Source: Bacteriovoracaceae bacterium | Lineage (GTDB): Bacteria > Bdellovibrionota > Bacteriovoracia > Bacteriovoracales > Bacteriovoracaceae | Assembly (NCBI GenBank): GCA_048270185.1 | Contig: JBLWTJ010000003.1 | Span: 64,001 to 128,000, forward strand | Length of the DNA stretch: 64,000 nt | Direction: 5' to 3' | Shown here: positions 7,237-30,378 of the stretch, piece by piece | Position numbering within the stretch: the first letter of the stretch is position 1 | How the letters are laid out: each line of letters opens with the position of its first letter | The notes under the pieces: model-generated | Databases searched by the model: none | Told to the model about the DNA's origin: nothing | Seen by the model: only the letters and a program-made list of their open reading frames with translations | Program-made: the position numbers and the translations under genes

Positions 7237-7252
7237 GTTTGATACCTCAAAC
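7237..7252. promoter_or_regulatory. Palindromic operator candidate GTTTGA-TACC-TCAAAC upstream of the imelysin operon
   Basis: Perfect 6-4-6 inverted repeat about 48 nt upstream of the start; 14/16 identical to the site at 30362-30377. Confidence 0.6.
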
Positions 7253-7338
7253 ATCGTGTGATTGCAATGATCAATTTCATTTTTTACTTTTGTTCACTCT
7301 AAATAGACTTCGCTTAGCTTGAATGCTTTAATTACTTA

Positions 7339-8481
7339 ATGAAATTATTAAAGTTACTTGTGTGTTTTCTTTCACTTAGCACATTTGCGATCCCAATTGG
7401 GCATGAATCAAGCCTGCTAGGAAATACCACTTCTCGTCCAGGTGATATTGGTGCGGCAATGGTTTTCCCATCGGCCACGGCCTATATTAAAAGGGATGAA
7501 ATAAAAATATACTTTGGTCTTATGTATACCAGACAAGATATTGAGCTTGATGGAATTGGAAGTAGTTTTGAGAACCAATTTATTCCATACTTTACAGGCT
7601 TTGCAGGTGACTTCTTTGGCCTAACATTTACAAACTACGTTACTTATACTGGTGCCAACCATGGAAAGTTAATTTTTAGTTCAGATGGAATCGATGGTCA
7701 GATTGATACCCAGTCCGAAGAGTCTATCATTGGTGGCTCTGTTGCTAAAATATATGGAAAATTTGCTCTAGGCATTTCTGCAAATTTAGCAATTCGCTCC
7801 GCAAGAGCCTATGCCAGTTTCTACGGTGATAGTGGTGGAACTCCCACTCTTACGACAATTAATTCATATACAAAAATGTTGATTATTAATTCGCTGGCAA
7901 GTGCTTCTTATAAGGAAGGCCCACACTTCTTTAATTTAGGGGTCACATTTCCTGGTATCAAGTACTCTGGAAGTAATGATCTTAAGAAGGTTGAACAAAA
8001 CGGCGCAAATCCTACTAGTGTGACAAATGAAAAGTCTCACCCTGACTTTGAAAGTACTTCAGGTATTAATTTCGGTTATAGCTACTTATCAGGAGGATGG
8101 ACTCCTTCAATTGATATTTTCTATAACACTGACAATGATATTATTAATTTAAACTTTAGTGACTCTGAAGAGAGATCCAATTACACAAGTGATATAAACT
8201 TGAAATTTGGCCTAAGTACTCCGGAGTATAGAATGGAGAGGTTCTATAAAGGAACAACTTATTCATTTCTGCTTGGTGCCCAATATCACGAGGTAGAGTC
8301 ACAGGTTGATGAAACAGAGCCAATTGAGAGAACTAAGACTTACCAATACTCAGTAGGAGTAAAGCTTACAAATCGAAAAACTAGTCCAATTTTTGGTGTT
8401 TATTACCAAAATGATCAAGGTCTTTCTCGCTCAACTGCTTGGGCCTTAATGTACTCTTCAAATTACAATATTTTTGACTAA
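7339..8481 (+). CDS. Probable outer-membrane beta-barrel protein (FadL/TodX-like N-terminus)
   Basis: Signal peptide; PIGHESSLLGNT N-terminal segment; alternating amphipathic strands; aromatic-rich C-terminus. Confidence 0.5.
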   Translation: MKLLKLLVCFLSLSTFAIPIGHESSLLGNTTSRPGDIGAAMVFPSATAYIKRDEIKIYFGLMYTRQDIELDGIGSSFENQFIPYFTGFAGDFFGLTFTNYVTYTGANHGKLIFSSDGIDGQIDTQSEESIIGGSVAKIYGKFALGISANLAIRSARAYASFYGDSGGTPTLTTINSYTKMLIINSLASASYKEGPHFFNLGVTFPGIKYSGSNDLKKVEQNGANPTSVTNEKSHPDFESTSGINFGYSYLSGGWTPSIDIFYNTDNDIINLNFSDSEERSNYTSDINLKFGLSTPEYRMERFYKGTTYSFLLGAQYHEVESQVDETEPIERTKTYQYSVGVKLTNRKTSPIFGVYYQNDQGLSRSTAWALMYSSNYNIFD

Positions 8482-8555
8482 TTTATGTAGACTTGAGTCT
8501 ATATTGTGGTGTAATAAATCTCGTTCTAATTTGGCTTTGCCAGGAGATATTTTTC

Positions 8556-9521
8556 ATGAAAACAATGGCCCAATTCTTTAGCCAAAACTACCGTCACTTT
8601 AATGCTGCTTCACTGGTTGATGCTTCTAAAGCTTATGTCGATCACATCAATAGTGGCAAGAAGATGATGATTACTCTTGCAGGTGCCATGAGTACGGCCG
8701 AACTTGGTGTAAGCCTTGCGGAAATGATTCGCCAAGATAAGGTGCAAATCATTTCTTGTACAGGAGCAAACCTTGAGGAAGATATCATGAATTTGATTGC
8801 TTATAATCACTATAAGCGTATTCCAAATTACCGTGATTTAAGTCCAGAGGAAGAAGAAGAGTTACTTGAGCAAGGCTTTAATCGTGTTACTGATACTTGT
8901 ATTCCAGAAGAGACGGCCTTTAGAAAACTTCAAAAATATCTCTTTGAAGAATGGTCAAAAGCGGCAGCTGCTGGTGAAAGATTATTTCCTCATGAATTCT
9001 TATACCGAATTTTAAGACGCAAAGACTTTGCCAGTGAGTTTGAAACAGATGCGGCCAATTCTTGGATGATGGCGGCTTGTGAGAAGAATTTACCAATCAT
9101 TGTTCCAGGTTGGGAAGACTCTACAACAGCAAATATTTTTGCTTCATACTGTTTAACTGGAGAGCTTGAACCTTCTCTTGTTAAAAATGGTATTGAGTAC
9201 ATGATGTTTCTTGCAAAGTGGTATCCAGATAATTGTGGTACAAGCGGTATTGGTTTCTTTCAAATTGGTGGTGGGATCGCTGGTGACTTTCCAATTTGTG
9301 TCGTTCCAATGCTTAATCAAGATATGGAAGATGATGTTCCTCTATGGTCATACTTTTGTCAGATTTCTGATTCGACGACAAGCTATGGGTCATATTCAGG
9401 AGCAGTTCCAAATGAGAAGATCACTTGGGGAAAACTTTCTTCAAAGACTCCACGATTTATCATCGAATCAGATGCAACGATTGTTGCCCCATTAATTTTT
9501 AGCTACGTTCTAGAAAATTAA
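8556..9521 (+). CDS. Deoxyhypusine synthase-like protein (probable homospermidine synthase); probable start 8556
   Basis: LAGAMSTAE, TGANLEED, RVTDT, GGGIAGDF, DSTTSYGSYSGAVPNEKITWGK, ESDATI; RBS AGGAG. Confidence 0.9.
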   Translation: MKTMAQFFSQNYRHFNAASLVDASKAYVDHINSGKKMMITLAGAMSTAELGVSLAEMIRQDKVQIISCTGANLEEDIMNLIAYNHYKRIPNYRDLSPEEEEELLEQGFNRVTDTCIPEETAFRKLQKYLFEEWSKAAAAGERLFPHEFLYRILRRKDFASEFETDAANSWMMAACEKNLPIIVPGWEDSTTANIFASYCLTGELEPSLVKNGIEYMMFLAKWYPDNCGTSGIGFFQIGGGIAGDFPICVVPMLNQDMEDDVPLWSYFCQISDSTTSYGSYSGAVPNEKITWGKLSSKTPRFIIESDATIVAPLIFSYVLEN

Positions 9522-9559
9522 TTGGAAAAGTATTGGCCTTCCTCTATGATGGGAAGGTC

Positions 9560-9940
9560 ATGATCTTATTATTTATCGTAAAATATATGGCATTCTTTTT
9601 AGGATGCTTTTTTTGTTTCTTACTTCATGCCAAACTTGATGTTCCAATTGTTATTGCTTCAAGTGTCGTTGGTCTTATTGGTAGTTTTATTCCATTACCA
9701 AGCTTTATTAAAGAACGTTATCACACTCATCCTCATGCTGCTATTTATGCCGGAAGTTTCGCCGGAATGTGTTCGGCAGAACTCATTACAAGCTATTGGG
9801 AGCTGGGAATCATCTCAATGATTGGGGCCTTAATATATATCCTAACGATGAATCTCTTTCATGGTTTTGGTGGCAAGCTTGGAAGTGTAGCCTTTGTTAG
9901 TGTAACTCTTTTTATTCTTGTTCGTGGAGTGTTTTGGTGA
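9560..9940 (+). CDS. Small multi-pass membrane protein (GSFAGM / GFGGKLG motifs)
   Basis: Hydrophobic, about 4-5 TM segments; AAIYAGSFAGM; RBS GGAAGG before ATG 9560. Confidence 0.7.
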   Translation: MILLFIVKYMAFFLGCFFCFLLHAKLDVPIVIASSVVGLIGSFIPLPSFIKERYHTHPHAAIYAGSFAGMCSAELITSYWELGIISMIGALIYILTMNLFHGFGGKLGSVAFVSVTLFILVRGVFW

Positions 9941-10314
9941 TTATCTTCGCACTACCTATTTCAATCATAGGTGCCATTTCAACATACGTGCTTTCCCAAA
10001 AAAGACCATTTGGGGCAATTAGAGCATCTACATTATTATCCATTCTATCCTATTTAATCTTCTGGGGGATAGGAGTGGAAGCTGAACTCTATAGTGTGGT
10101 TTTCTTTGGTGGAAGTTTTGTTGGAATGAGTGCATCTCATCGATTTGGTTACTTTAGTGTGACTCTTGGTTCAATTTTCTTCGCATTCTTTTACATATTT
10201 TTAATTCCTCTGCTAAAAGGTTACGGTGGGGCCCTTGGTTTGAGTGCTTTCTTATCAGTTGCTCTGACACATCTAATTCGTTTGATTCGTCATAAATTGT
10301 CTAGTACAGTTTAA
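9934..10314 (+). CDS. Small multi-pass membrane protein, paralogous to the preceding gene
   Basis: FFGGSFVGMS and GYGGALG motifs; overlaps upstream stop. Confidence 0.7.
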   Translation: MVIIFALPISIIGAISTYVLSQKRPFGAIRASTLLSILSYLIFWGIGVEAELYSVVFFGGSFVGMSASHRFGYFSVTLGSIFFAFFYIFLIPLLKGYGGALGLSAFLSVALTHLIRLIRHKLSSTV

Positions 10315-10316
10315 AG

Positions 10317-10829
10317 ATGAAAAAAATAATAACATTCTCGATACTCCTATTTCTAAATCTTAATCTCTTAGCTCAAGAGACAGTTCATGTTACAGGCTCA
10401 ATTGAAATCAAGGCTGATATTCAAAGGGTTTTTGAATTGGTATCTGATCCAATGAATGATCATCTTTGGAGAAGGGAAGTTAATGAGATGATGACGGATC
10501 GTCGTGAATTAGAAGTTGGAAGTATCTTTAGAGAGGATGCTTGGATTGGTATCAAGCGCCACTTTATAACAACGACAGAGTTAATCGAGCTAGAGCCTCC
10601 TTATCGTGCACTTTTTGAAACAGTTAAATCAAATCCATATTTTCTAAGAAGTGATCGAAGCTTTAAAGAGACAACAAATGGAACAGTTTTTACCTATAAT
10701 GTTGATTTTGATCAGGCCATGATAAAGCCGACGTTTGGCTTTAATGCAAAACCTGAAACTGTTGTTAAACTCTACGGAATTCTCATGAAAGGGTATCTAA
10801 AGAAGCTTAAACGAATTCTTGAAAAGTAG
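10317..10829 (+). CDS. SRPBCC/START-like (polyketide cyclase family) protein with signal peptide
   Basis: SIEIKADIQRVFELVSDPMNDHLW N-terminal pattern and amphipathic C-terminal helix. Confidence 0.7.
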   Translation: MKKIITFSILLFLNLNLLAQETVHVTGSIEIKADIQRVFELVSDPMNDHLWRREVNEMMTDRRELEVGSIFREDAWIGIKRHFITTTELIELEPPYRALFETVKSNPYFLRSDRSFKETTNGTVFTYNVDFDQAMIKPTFGFNAKPETVVKLYGILMKGYLKKLKRILEK

Positions 10830-10830
10830 T

Positions 10831-11889
10831 TTAGAGATGATCTCGTAACTTTACTTCAGCTAGGATTTCATCTTTTGCTAAACTTTGTAGATCTTCGACT
10901 TCATCAAACTCATCCATGATTTCAATTCCAAAGAATGTCTCGACGATATCTTCTAATGTTATAAGTCCTAGAATTGTTCCGTAATTGTCACAGACCATGG
11001 CGATGTGTTCCTTCTCTCTAATAAATTTTTTAAAAAGTTGCCTAAGAGGGGTACGCCTATTCTTAATGGATATTGGTCGCATAATATTTAGCTCAGAAAT
11101 AGTTTTATTATTCATTCCTTCGATCATGGCCTTTGTGATATCTTCTTTGTGAATATAGCCTTGAATATTGTTAACGTTCTCTTCAAAGCATGGAATTCGA
11201 GTAATGGGAAAGCGTTGGTCGTAGATATACTGAATGGAGGAGTTGATATCGGCCATAATGACTTTTCTTGCAGGAGTCATAACTTCTTCGATACTTTTTC
11301 GTGATGCTAGTAGAGATTCTTTAAGGAATTCACCTTCATCTTTTGCCAATGCCTTTGTGCGAACTCCTAGCTCAATCATCGATTCAACTTCTTCACGGCT
11401 CATTTGGTGAGTAGGGTCAGTCTTGAGCATTCTCATTAATCCCATCGAAATATAGAGAATTGGTTTTAGAATAAAGATAAGAGGAGGCAAGACCTTAAGC
11501 ATAAAGGGAGTTAAGGTTTTCCAATAATGATGCCCTAGGGACTTCGGGATAATCTCTGATAAGTAGAGTATCGCCAATGTTAAGACAATTGAAACGGCCG
11601 ATAAGTAGTATTCGAGATTTGCTCCTGAAACACCCATATCTTTAAAGAGTTGAATCGATTCTGAACCTACTCCGGCGGCACCTAGAGTGTGGGCAAATGT
11701 GTTAAGGGTTAGGATGGCCGAGATCGCTTCATCCTTATTGGAGGCATACTTCTTTAGCTGTGGGGCAAAGCTCTTTTCTTGTCGCTGTGAGGCTAGAATA
11801 AAATTTGGAGTAATAGAAAGTAAGACGGCCTCTAGGATTGAGCATAAGAAGGAGACACCTATTGAGATTAGGACGTAGATAATTAACAT
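10831..11889 (-). CDS. CNNM/CorB (DUF21 + CBS pair) Mg2+/Co2+ transport-family protein
   Basis: SFLCSILEAVLLS, AILTLNT, SEIIPKSLG, GLITLEDIVE, EIMDEFD; RBS AAGGAG before ATG 11889. Confidence 0.88.
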   Translation of the reverse strand: MLIIYVLISIGVSFLCSILEAVLLSITPNFILASQRQEKSFAPQLKKYASNKDEAISAILTLNTFAHTLGAAGVGSESIQLFKDMGVSGANLEYYLSAVSIVLTLAILYLSEIIPKSLGHHYWKTLTPFMLKVLPPLIFILKPILYISMGLMRMLKTDPTHQMSREEVESMIELGVRTKALAKDEGEFLKESLLASRKSIEEVMTPARKVIMADINSSIQYIYDQRFPITRIPCFEENVNNIQGYIHKEDITKAMIEGMNNKTISELNIMRPISIKNRRTPLRQLFKKFIREKEHIAMVCDNYGTILGLITLEDIVETFFGIEIMDEFDEVEDLQSLAKDEILAEVKLRDHL

Positions 11890-12098
11890 ATTAGCTTGGA
11901 CTCCTTTGTCCATGATTTAAATTGGGCATTGGTCTTAAAGTTTACCTAAAAGCCGACAATGGATTGTCAATTTAGTGTTAAAATAAGCTAATATTTGAGT
12001 TATTTGGTAGGTGATAATCAGGACTTAAGATAAAACGTGGCTTAAGCTCTGAGTTTGCAGTACAATATTAAGGATTTAAAAACTCAAATGAGGTATGT

Positions 12099-12551: not shown

Positions 12552-12556
12552 ATATG

Positions 12557-12581
12557 AAGGCCTCTGAATGAGGCCTTTTTT
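12557..12581 (+). terminator. Intrinsic terminator, probably bidirectional
   Basis: AAGGCCTC-TGAAT-GAGGCCTT followed by a T-run, between convergent genes. Confidence 0.75.
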
Positions 12582-13506: not shown

Positions 13507-13570
13507 AATTACTTATGCCTATATTTACTGTTTTTCTCAATACTTAAGGGCTTTCCTTGTAGTATTTATA

Positions 13571-16422: not shown

Positions 16423-16509
16423 AAGAAATATTATATAGTCTTCGGATTTACTTATTAAAGGCTCGCTTTAGCCTTTTTTCTTACTACTTCTATCAACGGT
16501 GACAGTTTC

Positions 16510-19526: not shown

Positions 19527-19647
19527 TATTCAAAAATATCTCTCTAAGTGTTTAATATTCTGTATTACCACCTGAGTGGCGCCTGAGTACCTAAATAGCC
19601 GCCACATTGCCCATTTGTCAGTTTATTGTAAATTTAGCTTTCTTCAT

Positions 19648-19677
19648 TTGACTCAGATTAATGACTCTTGTTATGAT
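19648..19677 (+). promoter_or_regulatory. Sigma70-type promoter of the copper operon
   Basis: TTGACT (19648-19653), 18-nt spacer, extended -10 TGnTATGAT (19669-19677). Confidence 0.6.
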
Positions 19678-19681
19678 ATAT

Positions 19682-19698
19682 ATACCCTATAGGGGTAT
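19682..19698 (+). promoter_or_regulatory. CsoR operator
   Basis: ATACCCTATAGGGGTAT matches the TACCC-N-GGGGTA G/C-tract CsoR operator pattern; lies between -10 and the copZ RBS; csoR is in the operon. Confidence 0.85.
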
Positions 19699-19708
19699 GG
19701 AGAATATT

Positions 19709-19936
19709 ATGAAAAGTGTACTATTTAATGTTAGCGGAATGAATTGTGGTGGTTGTGTAGCGAAAGTGGAAAGAGAGCTTGCTACATTTACAGATATTAA
19801 TAAAGTCGAAGTCGATTTAGAGAATCAAGAAATTAAGGTTTCTGGGGAAGATACATTCTCGAATATGAAGGTTAAGCAGACTCTTACTGAAATAGGATTT
19901 CCTGTTTCAGGGATGAAAAAGCTTAAACTACAATAG
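19709..19936 (+). CDS. copZ: Copper chaperone (HMA domain); start 19709
   Basis: GMNCGGC motif; RBS GGAG. Confidence 0.88.
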   Translation: MKSVLFNVSGMNCGGCVAKVERELATFTDINKVEVDLENQEIKVSGEDTFSNMKVKQTLTEIGFPVSGMKKLKLQ

Positions 19937-19947
19937 GAGAATTATTC

Positions 19948-22143
19948 ATGACAACTTCAAGTGTTACTCTAAAAATTTCAGGCATGAGTTGCGCCAGTTG
20001 TGCCGCAACGATTGAAAAAGAAGTAGCAAAGATTGAAGGCGTTTCTTCAAGTGCTGTTAATTATGCAGTGGAATCGGGGAAATTTGAAGTTAATGATAAG
20101 TCTTTAATTGATACAATTGAGAAGCGAATTGATGAGCTTGGTTATCACGCAAGTCATGGGGATGAAGTCGATCATGATGTACGAGATAAAGAAGATACAA
20201 AAAAAATAAAATCTAATTTTAATCTCTTCGTCATTGCTATTATCCTTGCGGTTATTATCTTTCTCTTAGAAATGGGACCACTTAAAGGTCTGCCAACTCC
20301 ACGTAGTAATTGGTATCTACAATTAATCTTGGCCTTGCCTATCTGGGGATGGATTGGTTTTAAATTCCAGAAATCTCTTTGGAGCTTTATTCGTACTGGT
20401 CGCTCTGATATGAATACCCTCATCGGACTTGGTACTACTGCGGCATTTCTATATAGTGTCTTTGTAACAATTTTCCCGACTGCAAGTACATCTCTGGGAT
20501 TGACTCAAAGAGTATACTTTGAAGCAGTTGGCTTTATTATTTCCTTTGTTTTTCTTGGACAATACTTTGAGGATAAGGCCAAGAGAAAGACAACACAGGC
20601 CTTGAATGCACTCTTTAAATTATCGGCCAAGAATGCACTTGTTTTAAGAGACGGTGAATTTCGAGAAATTTCACTCTCACAAGTTGTTCGTGGTGATATT
20701 ATCAGAGTAAAGGCCGGCGAGAAATTCCCGGTGGACGGAGATATCACAAAGGGCTCTAGCGCTATTGATGAAGCAATGATTTCAGGAGAGCCTCTGCCTG
20801 TCAAAAAATCAGTTTCAGACAAGGTCTTTGCTGGAACAATAAATGGTGATAGCGCAATTGAATATAAGGCCACAAAAGTTGGTGGCGATACATTCCTAGC
20901 TCAAATTATTCAATTTGTTGAAGATGCACAGGCCTCAAAGCCTGCGATTCAAAAATATGCTGATCGAATCAGCTCAATATTTACTCCTATCGTAATTGTC
21001 GTTGCAATTATTACTTTCACTGCATGGTTCTTTATTGGTCCTGAACCTATCTGGGGAAATTCTATCTCTAACTTTATTGCTGTCCTTGTTATTGCTTGCC
21101 CATGTGCTCTCGGCCTTGCAACACCTACTGCCGTTGTTGTGGCGACGGGAAGGGCATCTTTAAAAGGACTTCTTATTGGTGGTGGTGAAGTGATAGAGAA
21201 GGCCACTGATATCAATACGATCGTCTTTGACAAAACTGGAACGATTACAGTTGGAAAACCAACAATTATTGAAGCACTCTATGATGGAGACGAAAATGAT
21301 ATCTTAACTAAGCTTGCTTCAATCGAGAGTTTTTCAGAACACCCTCTTGCTAAAGCTGTTATTAAGCTAGCAAATGACAAAGGTTTAACTCTTCTCGAAC
21401 CGGATTCATTTGAAGTGGTGAAGGGAAAGGGGATCATTGCAGAAGTCGATGATGAAGAATTTCTAGTTGGAAATAAAAGATTGTTAGATGATCATCAGAT
21501 AGAATTGAGTACAAAATTAATTTCACATAAGGTTGGAAGTACAATATTTGTGAGCTCAAAACAAAAACATATTGCAACACTTGTCGTTGGAGATGAAATT
21601 AAAGCTTCTTCAAAAGACGCCATCGAGCACTTTCACAAGCTAGGTATTGAGACGTGGATGATCACTGGAGATAACCACGCTGTAGCTGAAGCTGTTGCAA
21701 AAGAGCTTGGAATTGATCATGTTCTTTCGGAAGCACTTCCTCTTGATAAGGCCGCTCAAGTAGAAAAACTTCAGGCCCAAGGAAAGAAAGTTGCCATGAT
21801 TGGTGATGGAGTTAACGATGCGCCTGCCCTTGCTAAAGCTAACCTTTCACTTGCTATGGGAACTGGTACAGATGTGGCCATGAACGCCTCAGATGTGACT
21901 ATTGTTAACGGTGACTTGGCCAAGGCTTGTGACTTTATTGAATTATCAATTGGAACGATGAAGATTATAAAACAGAATCTCTTTCTTTCAATGATCTATA
22001 ATACTATTTTAATTCCTGTTGCAGCAGGTGTACTTGTTGTCTTTGGGGGACCGATGATGCCTCCTGTTCTTGCTAGTGTGGCAATGGGGTTAAGTAGTAT
22101 TTCAGTTGTATCTAATAGTTTAAGAATAAGGAAATTAGTATGA
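19948..22143 (+). CDS. copA: Cu(I)-translocating P1B-type ATPase
   Basis: GMSCASC, CPCALGLATP, DKTGT, SEHP, GDGVNDAP, YN, MGLSS. Confidence 0.96.
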   Translation: MTTSSVTLKISGMSCASCAATIEKEVAKIEGVSSSAVNYAVESGKFEVNDKSLIDTIEKRIDELGYHASHGDEVDHDVRDKEDTKKIKSNFNLFVIAIILAVIIFLLEMGPLKGLPTPRSNWYLQLILALPIWGWIGFKFQKSLWSFIRTGRSDMNTLIGLGTTAAFLYSVFVTIFPTASTSLGLTQRVYFEAVGFIISFVFLGQYFEDKAKRKTTQALNALFKLSAKNALVLRDGEFREISLSQVVRGDIIRVKAGEKFPVDGDITKGSSAIDEAMISGEPLPVKKSVSDKVFAGTINGDSAIEYKATKVGGDTFLAQIIQFVEDAQASKPAIQKYADRISSIFTPIVIVVAIITFTAWFFIGPEPIWGNSISNFIAVLVIACPCALGLATPTAVVVATGRASLKGLLIGGGEVIEKATDINTIVFDKTGTITVGKPTIIEALYDGDENDILTKLASIESFSEHPLAKAVIKLANDKGLTLLEPDSFEVVKGKGIIAEVDDEEFLVGNKRLLDDHQIELSTKLISHKVGSTIFVSSKQKHIATLVVGDEIKASSKDAIEHFHKLGIETWMITGDNHAVAEAVAKELGIDHVLSEALPLDKAAQVEKLQAQGKKVAMIGDGVNDAPALAKANLSLAMGTGTDVAMNASDVTIVNGDLAKACDFIELSIGTMKIIKQNLFLSMIYNTILIPVAAGVLVVFGGPMMPPVLASVAMGLSSISVVSNSLRIRKLV

Positions 22144-22421
22144 GTAAACACCCAGACCACAAAGCAACCTTAACTAGAGTCAACCGAATTGAAGGACAAG
22201 TCGGTGGTATCAAGAGAATGATTGAAGATGGTAAATACTGTGTGGATATTCTCACGCAAATTAAATCAATTAGAAGTGCTTTAAAAGGGTTAGAGCTTGT
22301 CATTTTAGAATCACACTTAAATAGCTGTGTTATTAATGCAATTGATTCAGGTTCAAAAAAAGATAGCCAGAAGAAAATTGATGAGATCATGGAATTACTA
22401 AAGAAATCAGCAAAGTCATAG
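22140..22421 (+). CDS. csoR: CsoR-family copper-sensing repressor
   Basis: RIEGQVGGIKRM; YC...H...C ligand fingerprint. Confidence 0.92.
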   Translation: MSKHPDHKATLTRVNRIEGQVGGIKRMIEDGKYCVDILTQIKSIRSALKGLELVILESHLNSCVINAIDSGSKKDSQKKIDEIMELLKKSAKS

Positions 22422-22430
22422 GATGCGATT

Positions 22431-23633
22431 ATGAAAAGTTTACTACTATGCTTTATTACAGCGTCTGCCTTTGCTCTAAACTTTACTGAAGCCGTTGATA
22501 TCCTAAAAAAACACGATAGTGTCCAGGCCATCAAAGGAAGTGCAAAATCAGTTCTTGAATCTTCCAAGCAGAAAAGTTCTTGGGGGGATCCAATGTTTAA
22601 ACTTGCTGCTAAGAATTTTCCTGTTGATACCCTAAAATATGATCAAACTCCTATGACTGGAGTTGAAGTAGGAATCGCGCAAAAAATAGCTCTTTCAAAT
22701 CGATATGGAAAAATGGGGGAGAGCTTAAGTGCCGAAGCTAATTCCTTAAATTTTAGTGCTCTTGATTATGAACAAGCACTCGTTAAGCTTCTATGGTCCA
22801 ATATCATTGAGAATGAGAAAGTAAAAACAGAACTTGAAATCCTTGAAGAGAACTTAAAGTGGATCAATGGAATCCTAAGAGTGAGTAAAAAGCTGTACTC
22901 AAATGGGAAAATCACACAACAAGCACTTCTTGATATTCAAATTAGAAAATCAGAAATAGAAAGTGAATTAAGTAATAAGAAATATGAGCTTCGTCAGAAT
23001 AAATCACAATTAACTTACCTCATTGGTGAAGAAGCCAAGAATTTTAATTATAAGAGTGCTCCATGGAAGTTATTAGATCAGTCTTCTAAGGAAGAAACTA
23101 ATGATAATCGACTTAAAGCACTTGTAGCGGGAAAAAAGGCCAGTGATTTAAGTGTTGAGCAAGCGGATCTTGCTTATATCCCAGATATTACGATATCTCT
23201 AGGTTACACAATGCGCTCTGACGACGTTGATAAGAATGGTGACTTTGTCGGTGCTCAGATAACATTCCCAATTCCTGTCTCGGATAATACATCTGGAGCA
23301 AAGGGGGCGGCCATCGCTAAGAGTTATTCTGCCACTAGAAAATTGGAAGATTATAAGTTAAAGAAGAAGCGTGACCTCAGTATTATTAAAGATGATATTG
23401 AAAAACTAAAAGCTGAACTTTCAATCATAGCGACAAAGTCAGTTAGCTTTGCTCGCAACTCGCGTTCAATTACTTCAAAATCCTATGGACGCGGTAATAG
23501 CTCTTATATTGAATTATTACAAAGTGAACTTCGTCTACAAAATATCTTACTCAAGAAAATAATGCTAACAGCTCAACTTGCCATGAAGAAAGTTGATTAT
23601 AAATATACTCTTGGAGAGTCGTTATATGAATAA
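22431..23633 (+). CDS. TolC/CusC-like outer-membrane efflux protein
   Basis: Signal peptide; coiled-coil repeats; PDITISLGY...ITFPIP; precedes MFP and RND genes. Confidence 0.82.
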   Translation: MKSLLLCFITASAFALNFTEAVDILKKHDSVQAIKGSAKSVLESSKQKSSWGDPMFKLAAKNFPVDTLKYDQTPMTGVEVGIAQKIALSNRYGKMGESLSAEANSLNFSALDYEQALVKLLWSNIIENEKVKTELEILEENLKWINGILRVSKKLYSNGKITQQALLDIQIRKSEIESELSNKKYELRQNKSQLTYLIGEEAKNFNYKSAPWKLLDQSSKEETNDNRLKALVAGKKASDLSVEQADLAYIPDITISLGYTMRSDDVDKNGDFVGAQITFPIPVSDNTSGAKGAAIAKSYSATRKLEDYKLKKKRDLSIIKDDIEKLKAELSIIATKSVSFARNSRSITSKSYGRGNSSYIELLQSELRLQNILLKKIMLTAQLAMKKVDYKYTLGESLYE

Positions 23634-24978
23634 ACTTCTACCAATTTTCCTCTTATCTCTCTTTGTTTTGATCTCGTCTTGCCAATCGGCTAAAGAGGAA
23701 GTGACAACACAGACCAAAGCAGGAGTTAAGTCATACTATACATGTTCAATGCACCCACAAATCCGTGAAGATAAGCCAGGGAAATGTCCTATTTGCCATA
23801 TGAACCTAACGAAGGTTGAAGTGGAAGAAGGTGGTGATGAGGCAAAACATGATCATCAACAAGTAGTAAAGGATTTATGGCAATGTAAGGATTTCCCTGA
23901 TGTGACTAGTGAGAAGGATGATACATGCCCGATTGATGGGACACCAATGATTAAGGTCTCACATAGTAAGGTTGAAGCAAGTAAGGTTGTAGCAAAGGTA
24001 AAACTAAGAAAATCTCAAATGAGTCACTTTACTCCTTCGTATTTTCCTGTGACACCGATGAAGATGACAAAGAAGATTCGCTTACTTGGCCAAGTTTATC
24101 AATCTGAAGAGAAGGAGAGCAATATTCCTGCTCGTATTGATGGCCGAGTTGAAAAAGTTTACGTGAAATCAACTGGTAGCTTCGTTAGAGCAGGAGATCC
24201 TGTTGTCGATATCTATAGTCCAAAGTTAATTTCAGCAGGTGAAGAATATATTCTTGCTCGTAATACTTACCGTAAGAGTAAGAATCCTGAATTTAGAGAA
24301 CTCTATAAACAAAGTCAGGAAAGGCTTGAATTATGGGGCATAAAGAAATCTCAGTATGAGTCTTGGGTCAAAAATGGTCAGGTTCCAAATAAAATTACAA
24401 TCTTCTCACCTGCAACAGGAATTGTTAGAAAGAGAAACGCTACAGTCGGGACATACTTTAAAGAAGGTCAGAACTTCTTTGAGCTATCAAATCTAAGTGA
24501 TGTTTGGGTCGAATTAGACGTTTATGAACAAGATTCGGCCCTTGTTGAAATGGGGCAAAATGTAGAACTTGAATTTATTGCTCTGCCTGGAAAGAAAGTT
24601 CAAGGAGAAATTGATTTTGTAAGCCCTGTTCTTGATCAGCAATCAAGAACTCTTAAGGTTCGTGCAACGATAAAAAATGAGGAAGGTAAGCTTAAGCCTG
24701 GAATGGTTGCTAATGCGGAAATTACTTTTAACTTAGAAGGATTACCACTGGTTATTCCACGCTCGGCGGTTATTGATACAGGTAAGAGAAAAGTTGCGTG
24801 GGTAAAGATAAGCTCTAGTGAATTTAAATCAATTGTTATTCAAACTGGACATGAGTCGGAAGGCTACGTTGAAGTTTTAGCAGGTCTTAAGGAAGGGGAT
24901 GAAGTGGTAATTGAAGGAAATTTTCTTCTTGATGCTCAAGCGCAACTCTTTGGTGGCTACGAGGATATGAATGATTAA
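23626..24978 (+). CDS. cusB: CusB-type membrane fusion lipoprotein with heavy-metal-binding domains; start 23626
   Basis: Lipobox ISSC; YTCSMHP...CPICHM; SPATG, RTLKVR, LKPGM. Confidence 0.9.
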   Translation: MNKLLPIFLLSLFVLISSCQSAKEEVTTQTKAGVKSYYTCSMHPQIREDKPGKCPICHMNLTKVEVEEGGDEAKHDHQQVVKDLWQCKDFPDVTSEKDDTCPIDGTPMIKVSHSKVEASKVVAKVKLRKSQMSHFTPSYFPVTPMKMTKKIRLLGQVYQSEEKESNIPARIDGRVEKVYVKSTGSFVRAGDPVVDIYSPKLISAGEEYILARNTYRKSKNPEFRELYKQSQERLELWGIKKSQYESWVKNGQVPNKITIFSPATGIVRKRNATVGTYFKEGQNFFELSNLSDVWVELDVYEQDSALVEMGQNVELEFIALPGKKVQGEIDFVSPVLDQQSRTLKVRATIKNEEGKLKPGMVANAEITFNLEGLPLVIPRSAVIDTGKRKVAWVKISSSEFKSIVIQTGHESEGYVEVLAGLKEGDEVVIEGNFLLDAQAQLFGGYEDMND

Positions 24979-27900
24979 GAATCTTATTGAATTATCTATT
25001 CGCAATCGTGTTACTGTTGTTCTCTTATTCTTACTGATTGCACTCTTATCAGTTTTTAGTTTAAAAACTGCACGAATCGATGCAATTCCAGATATAGGTG
25101 AAAATCAGCAAATCGTCTTCACTGATTGGCCTGGCCGATCACCAAAGGATATCGAAGAGCAAATTACTTATCCTTTAAGTGTTATGCTACAGGGGATACC
25201 TGGCGTTAAGAATATTCGCGGGACATCTGCTTTTGGTTTTTCTACAATTTATGTCATCTTTAATGATGATATCGACTTTTATTGGTCTCGTTCACGAGTC
25301 CTAGAGAAGCTAACGAGTGCTCGAAATGAACTTCCAACAGGTGTTAATCCTTCGATGGGGCCAGATGCAACAGGGCTAGGTCAAGTGTATATGTATACGC
25401 TTGAGAATACAGCTAATAGTGCTAAGCCATTATCTCTTGAAGAATTAAGAACTCTGCAAGACTTCTATGTACGCTATCTTCTTCAGAGTGTTGAAGGGGT
25501 AAGTGAAGTTGCAAGCATTGGCGGCTTTGTTAAAGAATATCAAATTGATGTGGATCCAAATAAGCTCATCGCATACGACACTCATTTAACGGCCATTATT
25601 TCGGCCATTCAAAATAGCAATATCGATGTGGGTGCTGAAGTTATTGAAGACGGAGACCGTGAATTCGTTGTTCGTGGAAAGGGCTTCTTTAAGTCCATTG
25701 CAGATATTGAAAATGTTGTCGTCGCTGTTAAGAATAAGACTCCAATTCGCATTAAGGATATAGCCTCAGTTGGCATGGGGCCTGCCTTTAGGAGAGGGGC
25801 CCTCGATAAGAATGGTGAAGAAGCTGTCGGCGGAATCGTTACCATGCGTTTCGGAGAGAACCCGAAAGTTGTAATTGATAATGTTAAGGCTAAGTTAGAT
25901 AGTATAAGACAAGGTCTTCCAAAAGATGTCGAACTTGTCAGTTTCTATGATCGTACAGAGGTAATTGAAAGAACAATTGGAACAGTTTATTCTGCACTCT
26001 TTCAAGAGATCATTATTACAGTTGTCGTTATCCTCTTATTTTTACTACACTTTAAATCTTCAATTCTTGTCTCGCTAACTCTACCTTTTGGGGTTGGGAT
26101 TAGTTTTATCTTAATGAAGTTTCTAGGCATTGATTCAAATGTAATGAGCTTATCTGGACTTGTTATTGCCATTGGTTCAATGGTTGATATGGGTATTATC
26201 ATGACTGAGAATATCTATTCAAGTCTAGCCGAAGAAGGACGTGAATTATCAAAATCAGAAAGAATTCAAACAATTATTAAAGCTGCTAGAGAAGTAGGAC
26301 CTGCGATTCTTACGGCCGTTTCTACTACGATTGTTACTTTTCTACCTGTTTTTGGCCTAGAAGGGAGTGAGGGGAAATTATTTGGACCTCTTGCATGGGC
26401 AAAGACTCTTGCTATGTTTGGCTCAGTAGTTGTTGCTATTATTCTTGTTCCGGCCTTAAGTACTTTCTTTTTAAAAGGTGAACTTAAGCCAATTGAGAAG
26501 AATCCTGTCAGTCGTAAAATTGTTGGAACATACCAACCCGTGCTTTCTTGGTTATTAGAGCATCGAAAGTTCTTTGCTATTTTTCCTACAATAATTCTAC
26601 TTCTTGGTTTTATCTCTTATACTCAGCTAGGTAAAGAATTTATGCCTTCACTGAATGAAGGAGAAATTCTCTATATGCCAGTAACTACTGCAGATGTCGG
26701 TATGACGAAGGCCCGCGAGCTTCTTGCATACACAGATGAGATGTTAAAGGATCATCCTCTCGTTGCAAATGTCGTTGGTAAACTAGGTCGAGCAGAAACA
26801 GCTCTTGATCCAGCTCCTGTTGCGATGTTTGAAACAGTTGTAAAACTTGTACCTCAAGAGGAGTGGCCAAGTGGAATGTCGATTTACGATATTATGCAAG
26901 AGCTTGATGCTCACCTTCAGGTTCCTGGCTTGGTCAACGCTTGGTTGTTTCCTATCGAGAATCGAATTGCCATGATTTCAACTGGAATTAAAACTCAAGT
27001 AGGGGTTAAGGTTTTTGGAGATGATCTAAATAAGCTTGAAAAAATTAGTCAGGAAATAGGTAAGGTCTTAGAAGGTATTAAAGGTTCGAGTGGTGTTTAT
27101 GCTCAGCAAATAACAGGAAAGCCTTATATTGAGTTTGACATTGATCGCGTGGCCGCTAGTCGATATGGGATTAATACCGGAACAATTAATAAGATCCTTC
27201 AAACTGCAGTTGGCGGAATGACTATCGGCCAGTTCTATGATGGAAGGAAGCGTTTTCCTATTCGCGTTCGTTATAAGAAAGAATTGCGTGATCGAATTGA
27301 TGAGTTAAAGAAAGTTCTAGTTCCAAGTCCGCTTGGACAGCATATTCCACTAGAGCAATTAGCTAGAGTTGAAATTGTGACTGGCCCTGCAATGATTCAG
27401 TCTGAAGATGGCCTTCTAAGAAATCTCGTTCTCTTAAACGTTCAGGGACGTGATCTTATTGGATTTGTTGAAGAAGCAAAGAAGGCAGTTGAAGAAAAAG
27501 TTGAATTACCTAAGGGGTATTCACTCTCTTGGGCCGGTCAATATGAGAACCAAGTACGTTCTAATAAGAGACTGATGATTCTGGTACCTATTGCTCTAAT
27601 CATTAATTTAATCATCATATACTTTGGTATCAAGAATTTAAGAAATGCTGCAATTGTTTTTAGTGCAGTTCCTATTGCATTTGCAGGAGGTCTTATATTG
27701 CTATGGATTGGTGGCTTTAATACATCTGTTGCGGTTTGGGTTGGCTTTATTGCTCTCTTTGGAATTGCCGTTGATGATGGGGTCGTGATGATGACCTATC
27801 TTCAAGAAGAATTTAAAAAGCATGCACCCACTAATTGGAGCGAGCTTAAAGAAGTCATTATAAGCGCTGGAAGTCGTAGGATTAGACCACTTGTAATGAC

Positions 27901-28087
27901 AACGACAACAACTGTTGTGGCCCTCATTCCTATCATGTGGTCAACAAGTACTGGTAGTGAAGTAATGAAGCCAATGGCCATCCCAACTCTTGGCGGTATG
28001 CTTGTTGAACTAATTACATTATTTGTTGTACCTATTACATACTCATACTTTGAACAAAAGAGAATTGAAGGAGAATCTAATGAATAA
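24971..28087 (+). CDS. cusA: CusA/CzcA heavy-metal RND efflux transporter
   Basis: DAIPDIGENQQIV, GPDATGLG, GKEFMPSLNEGEILYMP, DPAP. Confidence 0.95.
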   Translation: MIKNLIELSIRNRVTVVLLFLLIALLSVFSLKTARIDAIPDIGENQQIVFTDWPGRSPKDIEEQITYPLSVMLQGIPGVKNIRGTSAFGFSTIYVIFNDDIDFYWSRSRVLEKLTSARNELPTGVNPSMGPDATGLGQVYMYTLENTANSAKPLSLEELRTLQDFYVRYLLQSVEGVSEVASIGGFVKEYQIDVDPNKLIAYDTHLTAIISAIQNSNIDVGAEVIEDGDREFVVRGKGFFKSIADIENVVVAVKNKTPIRIKDIASVGMGPAFRRGALDKNGEEAVGGIVTMRFGENPKVVIDNVKAKLDSIRQGLPKDVELVSFYDRTEVIERTIGTVYSALFQEIIITVVVILLFLLHFKSSILVSLTLPFGVGISFILMKFLGIDSNVMSLSGLVIAIGSMVDMGIIMTENIYSSLAEEGRELSKSERIQTIIKAAREVGPAILTAVSTTIVTFLPVFGLEGSEGKLFGPLAWAKTLAMFGSVVVAIILVPALSTFFLKGELKPIEKNPVSRKIVGTYQPVLSWLLEHRKFFAIFPTIILLLGFISYTQLGKEFMPSLNEGEILYMPVTTADVGMTKARELLAYTDEMLKDHPLVANVVGKLGRAETALDPAPVAMFETVVKLVPQEEWPSGMSIYDIMQELDAHLQVPGLVNAWLFPIENRIAMISTGIKTQVGVKVFGDDLNKLEKISQEIGKVLEGIKGSSGVYAQQITGKPYIEFDIDRVAASRYGINTGTINKILQTAVGGMTIGQFYDGRKRFPIRVRYKKELRDRIDELKKVLVPSPLGQHIPLEQLARVEIVTGPAMIQSEDGLLRNLVLLNVQGRDLIGFVEEAKKAVEEKVELPKGYSLSWAGQYENQVRSNKRLMILVPIALIINLIIIYFGIKNLRNAAIVFSAVPIAFAGGLILLWIGGFNTSVAVWVGFIALFGIAVDDGVVMMTYLQEEFKKHAPTNWSELKEVIISAGSRRIRPLVMTTTTTVVALIPIMWSTSTGSEVMKPMAIPTLGGMLVELITLFVVPITYSYFEQKRIEGESNE

Positions 28088-28553
28088 AATTATTTTAATT
28101 TCACTTTTTACACTTCTAACTTTTGCTAATGAAAGAATTAGCTTAGAAGCATCTAAGAAAACTGAAATTATTAAGATGTTGGAAGTGAATGAGCAACTTC
28201 ATAGTGCTTTCTTTGATTATGATGCTAAGAAAGTTGAAGAATCGGCAAAAGCTCTATCTGAATCCATTGGTACTATCTCAACACCTGAAGTTAAGAAACT
28301 TTTAAAATACTCACAAATGAAGCTTAAGGATATAAAAGCAAGCAATAGTGAAAGTGCTAATAAGCAAAAGTATCATATCGTTTCAATGGCGCTAATTCAT
28401 ATCGTAAATAAATATGAAGTTGGTAAGTATAACGCTTATTCTTGTCCGATGGTGAAGCAGAAGTGGGTTCAAAACTCAGCTAAGCAAGATAAGGTCCACA
28501 ATCCATATGCAGCAAATATGCCTCATTGTGGACAAAAAGATACGAACTTCTAA
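28080..28553 (+). CDS. DUF3347-like periplasmic metal-binding protein; start 28080
   Basis: Signal peptide; YSCPM...W...NPY..MPHCG motif typical of cus-associated proteins; RBS GGAG. Confidence 0.75.
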   Translation: MNKIILISLFTLLTFANERISLEASKKTEIIKMLEVNEQLHSAFFDYDAKKVEESAKALSESIGTISTPEVKKLLKYSQMKLKDIKASNSESANKQKYHIVSMALIHIVNKYEVGKYNAYSCPMVKQKWVQNSAKQDKVHNPYAANMPHCGQKDTNF

Positions 28554-29066
28554 TTACTTCAAATAATCTGTTACGGCCGCTCCAAATATGCTTGGGAAGG
28601 CGATGATCACAGTACGCTTAAAAGCAAGAGTTGGATCGGTCATGACAGGGAATTTATCAATAAGAAAGAGAATAAAGACAACACTTGAAGTTGTAATCAA
28701 ATAGATGGCAAAGATTCTCTTGATAAACTCAGCGACATTTCCCTTAAGCTTAAATCGGTAGAAGTTAAAGTAGACAAAACAAGTCACGATAACGATTGAA
28801 GATGCCAGTAGGTAATAAATATTATCAAATTTTAGTGAAACACTTAAATTCCAAACTTCTTCAGTAAAGCAAAGAGGTGAGGCAACGAGAAAGGCCCCAA
28901 CAAAGATCTGTGAAATATCACGTAAGCGAAGCTCAACCATAAGAGGGTTGATAACATGGCCCATAGGTTTTCCTGAATCATCGAGGAAGGTAACAACTTC
29001 TTTTAAGTAGCCATTGATACGCTTGATTTCTGTATGAGTGTTTTTTAAGCCTTTGAATACGTCCAT
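28554..29066 (-). CDS. DUF2391-like integral membrane protein
   Basis: RDISQIFVGA, TEEVWNL, FPSIFGAAVTD. Confidence 0.75.
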   Translation of the reverse strand: MDVFKGLKNTHTEIKRINGYLKEVVTFLDDSGKPMGHVINPLMVELRLRDISQIFVGAFLVASPLCFTEEVWNLSVSLKFDNIYYLLASSIVIVTCFVYFNFYRFKLKGNVAEFIKRIFAIYLITTSSVVFILFLIDKFPVMTDPTLAFKRTVIIAFPSIFGAAVTDYLK

Positions 29067-29099
29067 AGTAAAATTATAGAGTTGTTTTGGAATTTAGGC

Positions 29100-29125
29100 A
29101 AAAAAAAAGGCCCGATAAACGGGCC
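29100..29125 (-). terminator. Intrinsic terminator of the 29145..30041 gene
   Basis: GGCCCG/CGGGCC stem with an A9 run on + (U-tract on -). Confidence 0.8.
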
Positions 29126-29144
29126 CCTTATATCTTAACTTTTA

Positions 29145-30041
29145 TTAGAATAAGTTAATTGTTGCAGAGAATCCAATATTAGTTTTCTTAACATCTGCAT
29201 CATCAGCTAAGAATTGGATATTTGGGTAAAGGTAGATATCTCTTGATACAGAAATTCCGATACCGATAGATTGATACTCGTATCTTCTCTTAAGGTCTGA
29301 GTTACTTGCTCCTCTAACTCTTCTATAGTTAAAGTAACCAAATACAGTTCTGAAAGAGAAAGTATCATTGAAAGTATACTCAAGCATTGGATATAGTCCA
29401 AGAGAGAAACGTGTAAGGCCACTGGCCACTGGAGTTTCATCTTTGTACATATAGTAGCTATAATCTACAACACCACCAAGAGTAAGACCTGTCTTACCAA
29501 TATTGGCCATCATATATTGTTGAAGAGTTGCAACACCGCTAATTTCAGCATCTTTGTATGAGTCAGAAGTCCCAAAAGTATAAGTTGCAGATGAGATTGT
29601 TTGGAAAACACCAACTTTGTAAACTCTTGAGTAACTTAGGTATGGATCTGGAACATCAGAGTCTGGGTTACTGAATGGCTTTGTAGCACCCATTCCAGCT
29701 CCAAAAGAGATAGAGTCATTCTTAGTGAAGCGGTAGCGACCTGAAACATCAAGTCCTAGGTAAGTCGCAGTTTCAACTTCTGGGTCACCCGAGATATTTG
29801 GTCTTTCATCACCGAATGGGTCATCAAGAGCACCACCGTTGTAACCAAGTCCAATACTCATACTTAGTGGAGACTTTGAACCTGACTCAGCTCTCATTCT
29901 CGCGTTCGTAATTTCATTATCGATGTCATTTTTCTTTTCTGTTGAGCTCTTCTTTGTTTCTTGTGCATGAACACTTGTCATTGCAAGAGTGAGAAGTAGC
30001 ATCAACGTTTTTGCGCTTTTAAAATTCATTTTCATAATCAC
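29145..30041 (-). CDS. Outer-membrane beta-barrel protein of unknown function, paralogue of 38659..39600
   Basis: Signal peptide; amphipathic strands; C-terminal Phe; YNGGALD..ERPNI and RDI...PNI.F.A.D blocks shared with 38659. Confidence 0.7.
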   Translation of the reverse strand: MIMKMNFKSAKTLMLLLTLAMTSVHAQETKKSSTEKKNDIDNEITNARMRAESGSKSPLSMSIGLGYNGGALDDPFGDERPNISGDPEVETATYLGLDVSGRYRFTKNDSISFGAGMGATKPFSNPDSDVPDPYLSYSRVYKVGVFQTISSATYTFGTSDSYKDAEISGVATLQQYMMANIGKTGLTLGGVVDYSYYMYKDETPVASGLTRFSLGLYPMLEYTFNDTFSFRTVFGYFNYRRVRGASNSDLKRRYEYQSIGIGISVSRDIYLYPNIQFLADDADVKKTNIGFSATINLF

Positions 30042-30360
30042 TCCATGTGTAAATATTCTGAGCCAATATTGTCTTAACTATTAGATGAAAGAGCAAATTT
30101 TTTCTTAAGTTTTAAGTACTTTCAACAAAAGGTATTTTTGCTTTATGCGATATTGTTTACTCCTTAAATGATAGTGGGTGGATTATTAAATTTTTTTAAA
30201 ATTAAGAATGAACTTTTTGTAGCTGAAGTACGTGAAGTCATTTTGTGGGCAATAGTGTTTTATTCATTATATTTATATTCTAATTTTCATTGATGATTAT
30301 TAATAAGTAGATAGTTAGGTTGTTTAACGATGTTAATATAAGTTACAGGTGCAGTATTAA

Positions 30361-30378
30361 AGTTTGACTTATCAAACT
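30361..30378. promoter_or_regulatory. Palindromic operator candidate AGTTTGA-CTTA-TCAAACT overlapping a TTGACT -35 element
   Basis: Perfect 7-4-7 inverted repeat; TTGACT-17 nt-TATTTA promoter geometry; twin of 7237-7252. Confidence 0.6.

What the first reader, a model, noticed from the sequence alone, without database searches (positions are those of the whole stretch)
7237..30378. Shared non-Fur operator GTTTGA-N4-TCAAAC upstream of both iron operons
Seen: read in the direction of transcription the sites are GTTTGAGGTATCAAAC (7252 to 7237, about 48 nt before imelysin) and GTTTGACTTATCAAAC (30362-30377, about 56 nt before the siderophore locus). They are 14/16 identical, both have perfect 6-bp palindromic arms, and each embeds a TTGA -35-like element, which is repressor geometry. 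Established: this does not resemble the Fur (GATAATGATAATCATTATC), DtxR/IdeR, RirA IRO or Irr ICE boxes, and its spacing is shorter than FNR TTGAT-N4-ATCAA. Inference: the operator of an uncharacterised iron-responsive regulator. No candidate regulator gene is adjacent.
Basis: partly seen in the sequence, partly recalled or inferred. Interest (0 to 1): 0.8.

Follow-up and report, generated by a model that had tools for sequence, protein, structure and literature searches.

The report
DtxR-type iron switch replaces Fur
A 16-base palindrome sits in front of the iron-uptake and iron-storage genes of this marine predatory bacterium and its relatives, and it is likely the binding site of an unstudied DtxR-family repressor that would run iron control in a Gram-negative cell where no Fur gene was found.

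Summary
Both sites are real. The genome (a Halobacteriovorax) has 6 exact GTTTGA-N4-TCAAAC sites against 0.36 expected, all intergenic, 47-57 nt before a start. Near-matches precede feoAB and bfd-bfr. The box is conserved before orthologous iron genes and occurs in 150 of 186 family genomes (446 hits, control 104). Its left arm carries the predicted -35, so it would repress. The core equals the Treponema TroR operator. No Fur was found; there is one DtxR-family gene on another contig (180 of 186 family genomes), with an unusual His/His/Cys/Glu/His site. In other phyla, homologues head feoAB operons, and 51 of 80 carry GTTT-N8-AAAC on their own promoter (shuffles 0.63; other promoters 3 of 337). 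Binding and the metal are inferred, not shown. One genome keeps weak boxes without a detectable regulator. The scan earlier noted a related box (GTTAG-N6-CTAAC) on other DNA, but not this motif or regulator.

The parts
7237..7252 (.). Operator 1, GTTTGA-N4-TCAAAC, between the imelysin operon (minus strand) and a divergent 380-aa gene
   Evidence: exact box before imelysin homologues in 7 relatives (G002, G004, G006, G008, G009, G010, G011)
7222..7250 (-). Predicted sigma-70 promoter for imelysin: -35 TTGAGG inside the box (7250-7245), weak -10 position 17 bp on (7227-7222)
   Evidence: inferred from the register seen over 59 oriented sites; the consensus scan did not call it
6101..7189 (-). 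Imelysin (PF09375), first gene under operator 1
   Evidence: ATG start chosen by comparison with the 362-aa orthologues
4735..6120 (-). Di-haem oxidoreductase DHOR (PF06537), second gene of the imelysin operon
   Evidence: homologues also follow dtxR-like genes in 3 of 80 loci of other phyla
4232..4735 (-). 167-aa ORF with no Pfam family, likely third gene of the operon
7339..8481 (+). 380-aa protein with no Pfam or NCBIfam hit, divergent from operator 1 (86 nt); possibly co-regulated
   Evidence: same divergent layout in 5 relatives (G002, G004, G008, G009, G011)
30362..30377 (.). Operator 2, GTTTGA-N4-TCAAAC, before the siderophore operon
   Evidence: exact box before the orthologous first gene in 9 relatives (G002-G009 and G022)
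30364..30392 (+). Predicted promoter: -35 TTGACT inside the box (30364-30369), 17 bp, -10 TATTTA (30387-30392)
   Evidence: inferred; the consensus scan did not call it
30434..30955 (+). 173-aa protein with a signal-peptide-like N-terminus and no known family; first gene under operator 2
   Evidence: no family, no Atlas hit
31026..33438 (+). PepSY-associated TM protein and MFS-like exporter
   Evidence: MFS hit below its cut-off
33389..38637 (+). NRPS-independent hydroxamate siderophore genes: IucA/C fused to an acetyltransferase, a second IucA/C, Lys/Orn N-monooxygenase
38659..39600 (+). 313-aa ORF with no known family; possibly the last gene of the siderophore operon

Best explanation
The palindrome GTTTGA-N4-TCAAAC marks a conserved set of iron-uptake and iron-storage promoters in Bacteriovoracaceae, and it is likely the operator of the genome's single DtxR-family protein, which would act as the Fe(II)-activated master iron repressor in place of Fur. 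Shown: the sites, their place before iron genes, their conservation, the lack of a Fur hit in this genome, and the same box on the promoters of this protein's homologues in other phyla. Inferred: Fe(II) binds a primary site of His23, His27, Cys120, Glu123 and His124. The dimer then covers the box, whose left arm holds the -35 element, and blocks RNA polymerase. When iron falls the repressor lets go, and siderophore synthesis, imelysin/DHOR, FeoAB, Bfd and several envelope proteins are made. Also inferred: a repressor that is mostly local to feoAB in other phyla became global in this family.
For: (1) 6 exact sites against 0.36 expected, all intergenic, 47-57 nt before a start. Their genes: imelysin, siderophore operon, two di-haem CCP_MauG proteins, DUF6607 and one unknown 127-aa protein; 1-mismatch sites precede feoAB and bfd-bfr. 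(2) Orthologous promoters keep the box at 2 mismatches or fewer: bfd in 14 of 16 genomes with the gene, feoA in 9 of 11 loci. Of 77 exact sites fetched from 19 family genomes (77 of their 80), 70 were called intergenic. Further targets are a TonB receptor, siderophore-interacting protein, periplasmic binding proteins, FeoA, bacterioferritin, fumarase C, HiPIP, DUF4856 and a Suf-type Rrf2 gene. (3) 150 of 186 family genomes have an exact site: 446 hits against 104 for the reversed control, and 79 against 4 genomes with 3 or more. (4) In 59 oriented sites position 7 is C in 44, position 27 is A in 46 and position 31 is T in 31: TTGAC -35, 17 bp, -10. (5) No PF01475 hit in G000; 24 of 71 family genomes without a Fur-family hit have 3 or more exact sites. 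One PF02742 gene in G000; matches in 180 of 186 family genomes. (6) Same core as the TroR operators of Treponema (PMC2628430). (7) Homologues in Latescibacterota, Calditrichota, KSB1, Gemmatimonadota and others: 51 of 80 have GTTT-N8-AAAC within 160 nt upstream of their own gene, 2 of them exact. Shuffles average 0.63 (max 4); other promoter regions of the same loci score 3 of 337. The box occurs in 15 of 22 clusters at 70% identity. feoB follows in 51 of 80. A second site precedes a FecA-like TonB receptor in 2 of 5 such genomes. (8) Cys120 aligns with MntR Glu99, the position of DtxR Cys102, which reviews tie to iron selectivity. The model has a DtxR/MntR fold.
Against: No binding or expression data. 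In Bacteriovoracaceae the gene is mostly not autoregulated: 1 of 8 dtxR loci scanned had a 1-mismatch site upstream (G124), and none was seen by eye. So the link rests on homologues about 38% identical whose consensus is shifted (T for G at position 5 in 26 of 37 distinct sites). 29 of those 80 lack the core. G013 (95% complete) gives no DtxR hit in four searches and has dps, not dtxR, beside the usual neighbour gene. It still keeps a 1-mismatch site before HiPIP and a 2-mismatch site before feoA. G074 also lacks a hit and has an exact feoA box, though its contig starts inside the gene that often follows dtxR. Incompleteness alone predicts about 10 misses in 186 and 6 were seen. 36 of 186 family genomes have no exact site. 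The homologue in G028 ends an Fe(III)-type ABC operon with no close box upstream. Some sites precede genes with no obvious iron link (fusA in G125, a chemotaxis gene, PTS). The promoter scan called no promoter at either window box. Orientation was set by hand and kin are not independent. 115 of 186 family genomes do carry a Fur-family gene, which was not typed.
Confidence: 0.85

Rival explanations
1. The same DtxR-family protein binds the box, but the physiological co-repressor is Mn(II), or Mn(II) and Fe(II) alike, as for Treponema denticola TroR.
For: Databases label it an Mn-dependent DtxR/MntR. The best PDB hits are Bacillus MntR. T. denticola TroR uses the same core and responds to Mn and Fe (PMC2628430, Discussion part 1). 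It has His, not Met, at the DtxR Met10 position.
Against: The targets are iron genes (siderophore, bfd-bfr, FeoAB, FumC, TonB receptors) and no Mn transporter or SOD gene was seen among them. MntR ligands Asp8, Glu11, His77 and Glu99 are replaced. It scores 59-60 bits against MntR cut-offs of 138-153.
Confidence: 0.15
2. An Rrf2-family Fe-S sensor, such as the gene heading the suf operon, binds the box and acts like RirA.
For: G000 has 4 Rrf2 genes, one with three Cys ahead of the suf genes. G020 has an exact box 119 nt before the orthologue.
Against: The 88-hit matrix scan placed no site before any of the 4 Rrf2 genes of G000. In other phyla the box sits on the dtxR-like gene's own promoter. 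The core matches a proven DtxR-family operator. Rrf2 distribution across the family was not tested.
Confidence: 0.06
3. A Fur-family or FNR/CRP-family protein binds the box.
For: Fur-family genes occur in 115 of 186 family genomes. TTGA...TCAA recalls FNR, and a CRP/FNR gene lies near a 1-mismatch site.
Against: No Fur hit in G000 or in 6 more genus members that have 3-8 sites. The 6-nt spacer between TTGA and TCAA that FNR uses (recalled) is 2 longer than here, and the targets are iron-uptake genes.
Confidence: 0.03
4. The palindrome is only a strong -35 element or a chance or repeat feature with no repressor.
For: The left arm contains TTGAC. G040 has 6 exact matches that are mere coding repeats.
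Against: The right arm TCAAAC is as conserved as the left, only the 4-nt spacer is enriched, and the sites are confined to iron genes across genera.
Confidence: 0.02

Closest known systems
TroR and its operator, Treponema pallidum / T. denticola (PMC2628430; passages and Discussion part 1 read)
   Same: DtxR family; even-centred 18-bp dyad with the identical core TTTGA-N4-TCAAA; repression at a sigma-70 promoter; Gram-negative host; T. denticola TroR responds to Fe as well as Mn.
   Different: The outer pair is G...C here. TroR is described for the troABCDR transporter operon that contains it; this box covers ten or more unlinked promoters and the gene stands apart. TroR sequence was not compared here.
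DtxR / IdeR of Actinobacteria (PMC10317159, PMC11672702; passages)
   Same: Same two Pfam domains and fold; Cys-x-x-Glu-His primary site; global control of siderophore, uptake and storage genes by iron (inferred here).
   Different: Different box (19-bp TTAGGTTAGSCTAACCTAA); His in place of Met10; ancillary site residues not kept; no SH3/FeoA domain but a short Cys-bearing tail; 22-24% identity in structure matches; Gram-negative host.
MntR of Bacillus
   Same: Closest solved sequences and structures (about 33% identity); no SH3 domain.
   Different: The carboxylate-rich binuclear Mn site is replaced by His/Cys; targets are iron genes; below the family cut-off.
TroR of Haloferax volcanii (PMC10783522; passages)
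   Same: A DtxR-family master iron repressor controlling an iuc-type siderophore cluster and uptake genes.
   Different: Archaeal; motif TTTAGGC-NNN-CCTAAAA.
Fur regulon
   Same: Works like it: same gene classes (siderophore, feo, bfd, fumC, TonB receptors) and promoter overlap.
   Different: No Fur gene found in this genome; unrelated box.

Membership tests
DtxR family (regulator G000:C1:1536613-1537191) | N-terminal Fe_dep_repress wHTH plus Fe_dep_repr_C dimerisation domain | tested here: met
   PF01325 37.5 bits (cut-off 26) and PF02742 37.2 bits (cut-off 27); Foldseek top hits all MntR/DtxR/IdeR
DtxR family | Primary metal site [C/E]-x-x-E-H with an N-terminal ligand | tested here: met
   H23, H27, C120, E123, H124 invariant in 49 of 49 aligned sequences; motifs present in 80 of 80 homologues of other phyla, which were found by the C-terminal motif
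DtxR family | Homodimer through the C-terminal helices | tested here: inconclusive
   Model score 0.73, best control 0.00; the mark was reached by 20 of 30 solved homodimers and 1 of 23 single chains; runs agree in at least 94% of contacts, pLDDT at least 84. Like dimers are solved, so the pass may be from memory.
DtxR family | Metal-dependent binding to the operator | not testable with these tools
   needs EMSA or ChIP
TroR-type operator | 18-bp dyad with core TTTGA-N4-TCAAA at a promoter | tested here: met
IdeR/DtxR proper (Actinobacteria) | Met10 + Cys102 primary site, His79/Glu83/His98 ancillary site, SH3 domain | tested here: not met
   Cys kept; Met replaced by His; the residue aligned with MntR His77 (DtxR His79) is Thr; no FeoA/SH3 hit
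IdeR/DtxR proper (Actinobacteria) | 19-bp TTAGGTTAGSCTAACCTAA box | tested here: not met
   consensus here is GTTTGAC-N2-RTCAAAC, 16 bp
MntR proper | D8, E11, H77, E99, E102, H103 binuclear Mn site; NCBIfam cut-off | tested here: not met
   D8, E11, H77, E99 align with H, L, T, C; 59-60 bits against 138-153
Fur regulon | A Fur protein in the genome | tested here: not met
   0 PF01475 matches in G000, 95.9% complete; control positive in 13 of 14 genomes

The most novel reading that the evidence does not exclude
This is an undescribed DtxR subfamily spread over several Gram-negative phyla, with its own His/His/Cys/Glu/His iron site and its own box. In most phyla it carries a four-cysteine tail (C-x3-7-C-x2-C-x3-C in 50 of 80 homologues) that binds an Fe-S cluster or a second metal, so it senses iron together with oxygen or cluster status. 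In the aerobic predators of Bacteriovoracaceae it shed most of that tail, left the feoAB operon and took over the whole iron regulon from Fur.
Probability: 0.25. Interest if true: 0.78.

Novelty: new variant of a known kind. Interest (0 to 1): 0.58.

Why it matters
A 2023 review states that most Gram-negative bacteria use Fur for iron and limit DtxR proteins to manganese (PMC10317159, passage). Here a whole family of Gram-negative predators appears to run iron homeostasis through a DtxR protein now annotated as an Mn regulator. The work pairs a box with a candidate protein, so the claim is testable by one EMSA. The box also flags unknown genes as iron-starvation genes: a 173-aa protein, two MauG/MbnH-like di-haem proteins, a porin-like protein and a 49-aa protein. 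It gives a handle on how predators living on iron-rich prey manage iron, and a first regulon lead for uncultured phyla such as Latescibacterota and KSB1. Exceptions to the Fur rule already exist (Treponema TroR; Chlamydia YtgR and Geobacter IdeR, both recalled), which tempers the surprise.

Tried and rejected
Other spacers (0-10 nt): no enrichment. One-mismatch counts across the genus are no higher than control, so 1-mismatch sites were accepted only with conserved position. G040 (another family, 6 exact hits): all inside large coding repeats, rejected. G028's 16 one-mismatch hits against 8 control: 14 of the 16 were fetched, 12 of them called coding, rejected as chance. Fur as binder: rejected. 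The idea that genomes without exact sites have a changed box matching changed recognition helices: their feoA promoters carry degenerate copies of the same box (2-3 mismatches), so not supported. A RyhB-like small RNA behind 'orphan' sites: no Rfam hit in 5 loci, and most such sites precede 44-61 aa ORFs. RNA runs: no RNA holder listed. ESM Atlas gave no usable hit for the 173-aa protein. Print searches for this motif, regulon or regulator in Bacteriovoracaceae (listings only) showed no paper on it; one search returned the TroR paper and one unrelated paper. Leyn and Rodionov 2015 on archaeal DtxR regulons is not held, and regulon databases such as RegPrecise could not be searched, so a prior computational description cannot be excluded. 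No supplements were read.
Full report
OBSERVATION. They are the only exact matches in the window. Pfam confirms imelysin and DHOR under the first and a hydroxamate siderophore locus under the second. The window is G000:C3:64001-128000 of a 3.35-Mb, 36.6% GC genome. Names on close protein homologues place it in Halobacteriovorax.

MORE THAN CHANCE. The genome has 6 exact GTTTGA-N4-TCAAAC sites, against 0-2 for each of 10 other spacers and 0.36 expected. All 6 are intergenic and 47-57 nt before a start. The four outside the window precede two di-haem CCP_MauG proteins, a DUF6607 protein and an unknown 127-aa protein. Of 12 one-mismatch sites, 8 are intergenic, including those before feoAB, bfd-bfr and a porin-like operon. 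One-mismatch matches are not enriched in bulk, so they count only where conserved.

CONSERVATION. All 12 other genomes of the genus have 3-8 exact sites; the reversed control gives 0-2. In the family, 150 of 186 genomes have at least one, 446 hits against 104. I fetched 77 of the 80 exact sites of 19 family genomes; 70 were called intergenic. The box precedes imelysin homologues in 7 relatives and the first gene of the siderophore operon in 9. It is kept at 2 mismatches or fewer before bfd in 14 of 16 genomes and before feoA in 9 of 11 loci. Other targets: TonB receptor, siderophore-interacting protein, periplasmic binding proteins, fumarase C, HiPIP, DUF4856, Kelch proteins and a Suf-type Rrf2 gene. 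Some sites precede genes with no clear iron link. The 6 hits of G040, another family, are coding repeats and were set aside.

GEOMETRY. I oriented 59 sites by hand towards the likely target (50 from relatives, 9 from G000). Position 7 is C in 44, position 27 is A in 46 and position 31 is T in 31. That is TTGAC(A) inside the left arm, 17 bp, then a TAnAAT-like hexamer, so a bound protein would cover the -35 and spacer. The two window promoters are weak by consensus and the scan did not call them.

THE REGULATOR. G000 gives no Fur hit, four Rrf2 genes and one DtxR-family gene, C1:1536613-1537191. That gene has matches in 180 of 186 family genomes, Fur-family genes in 115; 24 of the 71 genomes without a Fur hit have 3 or more exact sites. 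The Treponema TroR operators share the core TTTGA-N4-TCAAA (PMC2628430, passages). The strongest link comes from outside the family. A profile search found distant homologues; an alignment of 33 of them fetched the best 80 of 581 loci from a capped scan, rich in Latescibacterota, Calditrichota, KSB1 and Gemmatimonadota. In 51 of 80 the 160 nt before the regulator gene hold GTTT-N8-AAAC; it was the top dyad of an unbiased count. Shuffles average 0.63 (max 4) and other promoter regions give 3 of 337; 38 of 80 lie within 2 mismatches of the exact box and 2 are exact. The box is in 15 of 22 clusters at 70% identity. feoB follows in 51 of 80, and homologues of G000's boxed porin-like gene and DHOR in 9 and 3. 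In 5 such genomes a scan found only 1-3 sites each; in 2 the extra site precedes a FecA-like receptor, and one further site was not examined. There the regulon looks small; in Bacteriovoracaceae it is global.

THE PROTEIN. The model (pLDDT 85) matches MntR, DtxR and IdeR. His23, His27, Cys120, Glu123 and His124 are invariant in 49 of 49 sequences. Against Bacillus MntR, Asp8, Glu11, His77 and Glu99 align with His, Leu, Thr and Cys. Reviews tie Cys at this position to iron selectivity (PMC11672702 and PMC10317159, passages). There is no SH3 domain. A homodimer model scored 0.73 against a best control of 0.00 (mark reached by 20 of 30 solved homodimers and 1 of 23 single chains; runs agree in at least 94% of contacts; pLDDT at least 84), but like dimers are solved, so this shows likeness only. 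Fifty of the 80 distant homologues end in a four-Cys motif; family members keep zero to three tail Cys.

AGAINST. Nothing here shows binding or iron response. The family's own gene rarely has a box (1 of 8 loci scanned). The distant homologues are about 38% identical, their consensus is shifted to TGTTTTA-N4-TAAAACA, and 29 of 80 lack the core. Six family genomes lack the gene by search; they hold 0-1 exact sites, and two of them have other DtxR genes in feo clusters. G074 has an exact feoA box but its contig breaks where the gene may lie. G013 has no hit and altered synteny yet keeps weak boxes before HiPIP and feoA; this is unexplained unless the gene is in its missing 5%. About 10 misses are expected from incompleteness. 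G028's homologue ends an Fe(III)-type ABC operon with no close box.

COMPARISON AND NOVELTY. It works like Fur or IdeR. The protein is a member of the DtxR family but fails the tests for IdeR proper and MntR proper. The box is a TroR-type operator. Nine paper searches (listings) showed no description of this regulon or subfamily; one relevant comparative paper and the regulon databases were out of reach. PMC10783522 and bioRxiv 10.1101/2024.02.12.579695 were read as passages. An earlier scan note, e1-5850731, reads GTTAG-N6-CTAAC on feoAB promoters of other bacteria as a DtxR-family box with the same geometry; I did not test it. Verdict: a real iron regulon, most likely run by an uncharacterised His/Cys-type DtxR protein; new variant of a known kind; interest 0.58.

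Noticed in passing
L042:1474-1620 (-) = G000:C3 near 373653; also L085, L157, L164, L148, L049, L163: A 44-61 aa ORF family starting M-[IV]-x-x-N-C follows the box in G000 and 5 relatives (7 copies), with no Pfam hit over cut-off. Candidate small iron-starvation protein.
   Followed up: partly
window 30434-30955: The 173-aa first gene of the siderophore operon has no Pfam, NCBIfam or Atlas match but keeps the box in 9 relatives.
   Followed up: partly
window 28554-39600: No TonB-dependent receptor domain was found in or beside the siderophore locus; the receptor may be elsewhere or of another kind. The 298-aa and 313-aa flanking ORFs are of no known family.
   Followed up: no
L035:3626-4939 (-) and L036:1756-3069 (+): Two paralogous MauG/MbnH-like di-haem proteins carry the box in many family genomes; their role in iron starvation is unknown.
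   Followed up: partly
L067, L075, L088, L092, L096, L048, L108, L196: The box lies about 80-150 nt before HiPIP genes, often nearer a divergent Arg-tRNA-protein transferase gene; it may activate rather than repress HiPIP.
   Followed up: no
L061:2501-2720 (G006): A boxed promoter is followed by about 190 nt without a called ORF that ends in a terminator-like hairpin; no Rfam hit. Possible small RNA.
   Followed up: partly
L031, L032, L033: Three family genomes carry a second copy of the subfamily with a four-Cys tail, upstream of a gene that may encode an iron permease; likely acquired with a metal island.
   Followed up: no
window 19661-28553: Copper island: HMA chaperone, P1B ATPase, CsoR-type repressor and CusCBA-like efflux; it has no box.
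   Followed up: no
window 50014-53293: ZnuA/ABC-3 uptake genes in a genome with no Fur-family (Zur) hit; their regulator is unknown.
   Followed up: no
L002 (G000:C1:146716-147273): The Rrf2 gene ahead of a cysteine desulfurase-like gene has only one Cys, unlike cluster-binding IscR (recalled).
   Followed up: no
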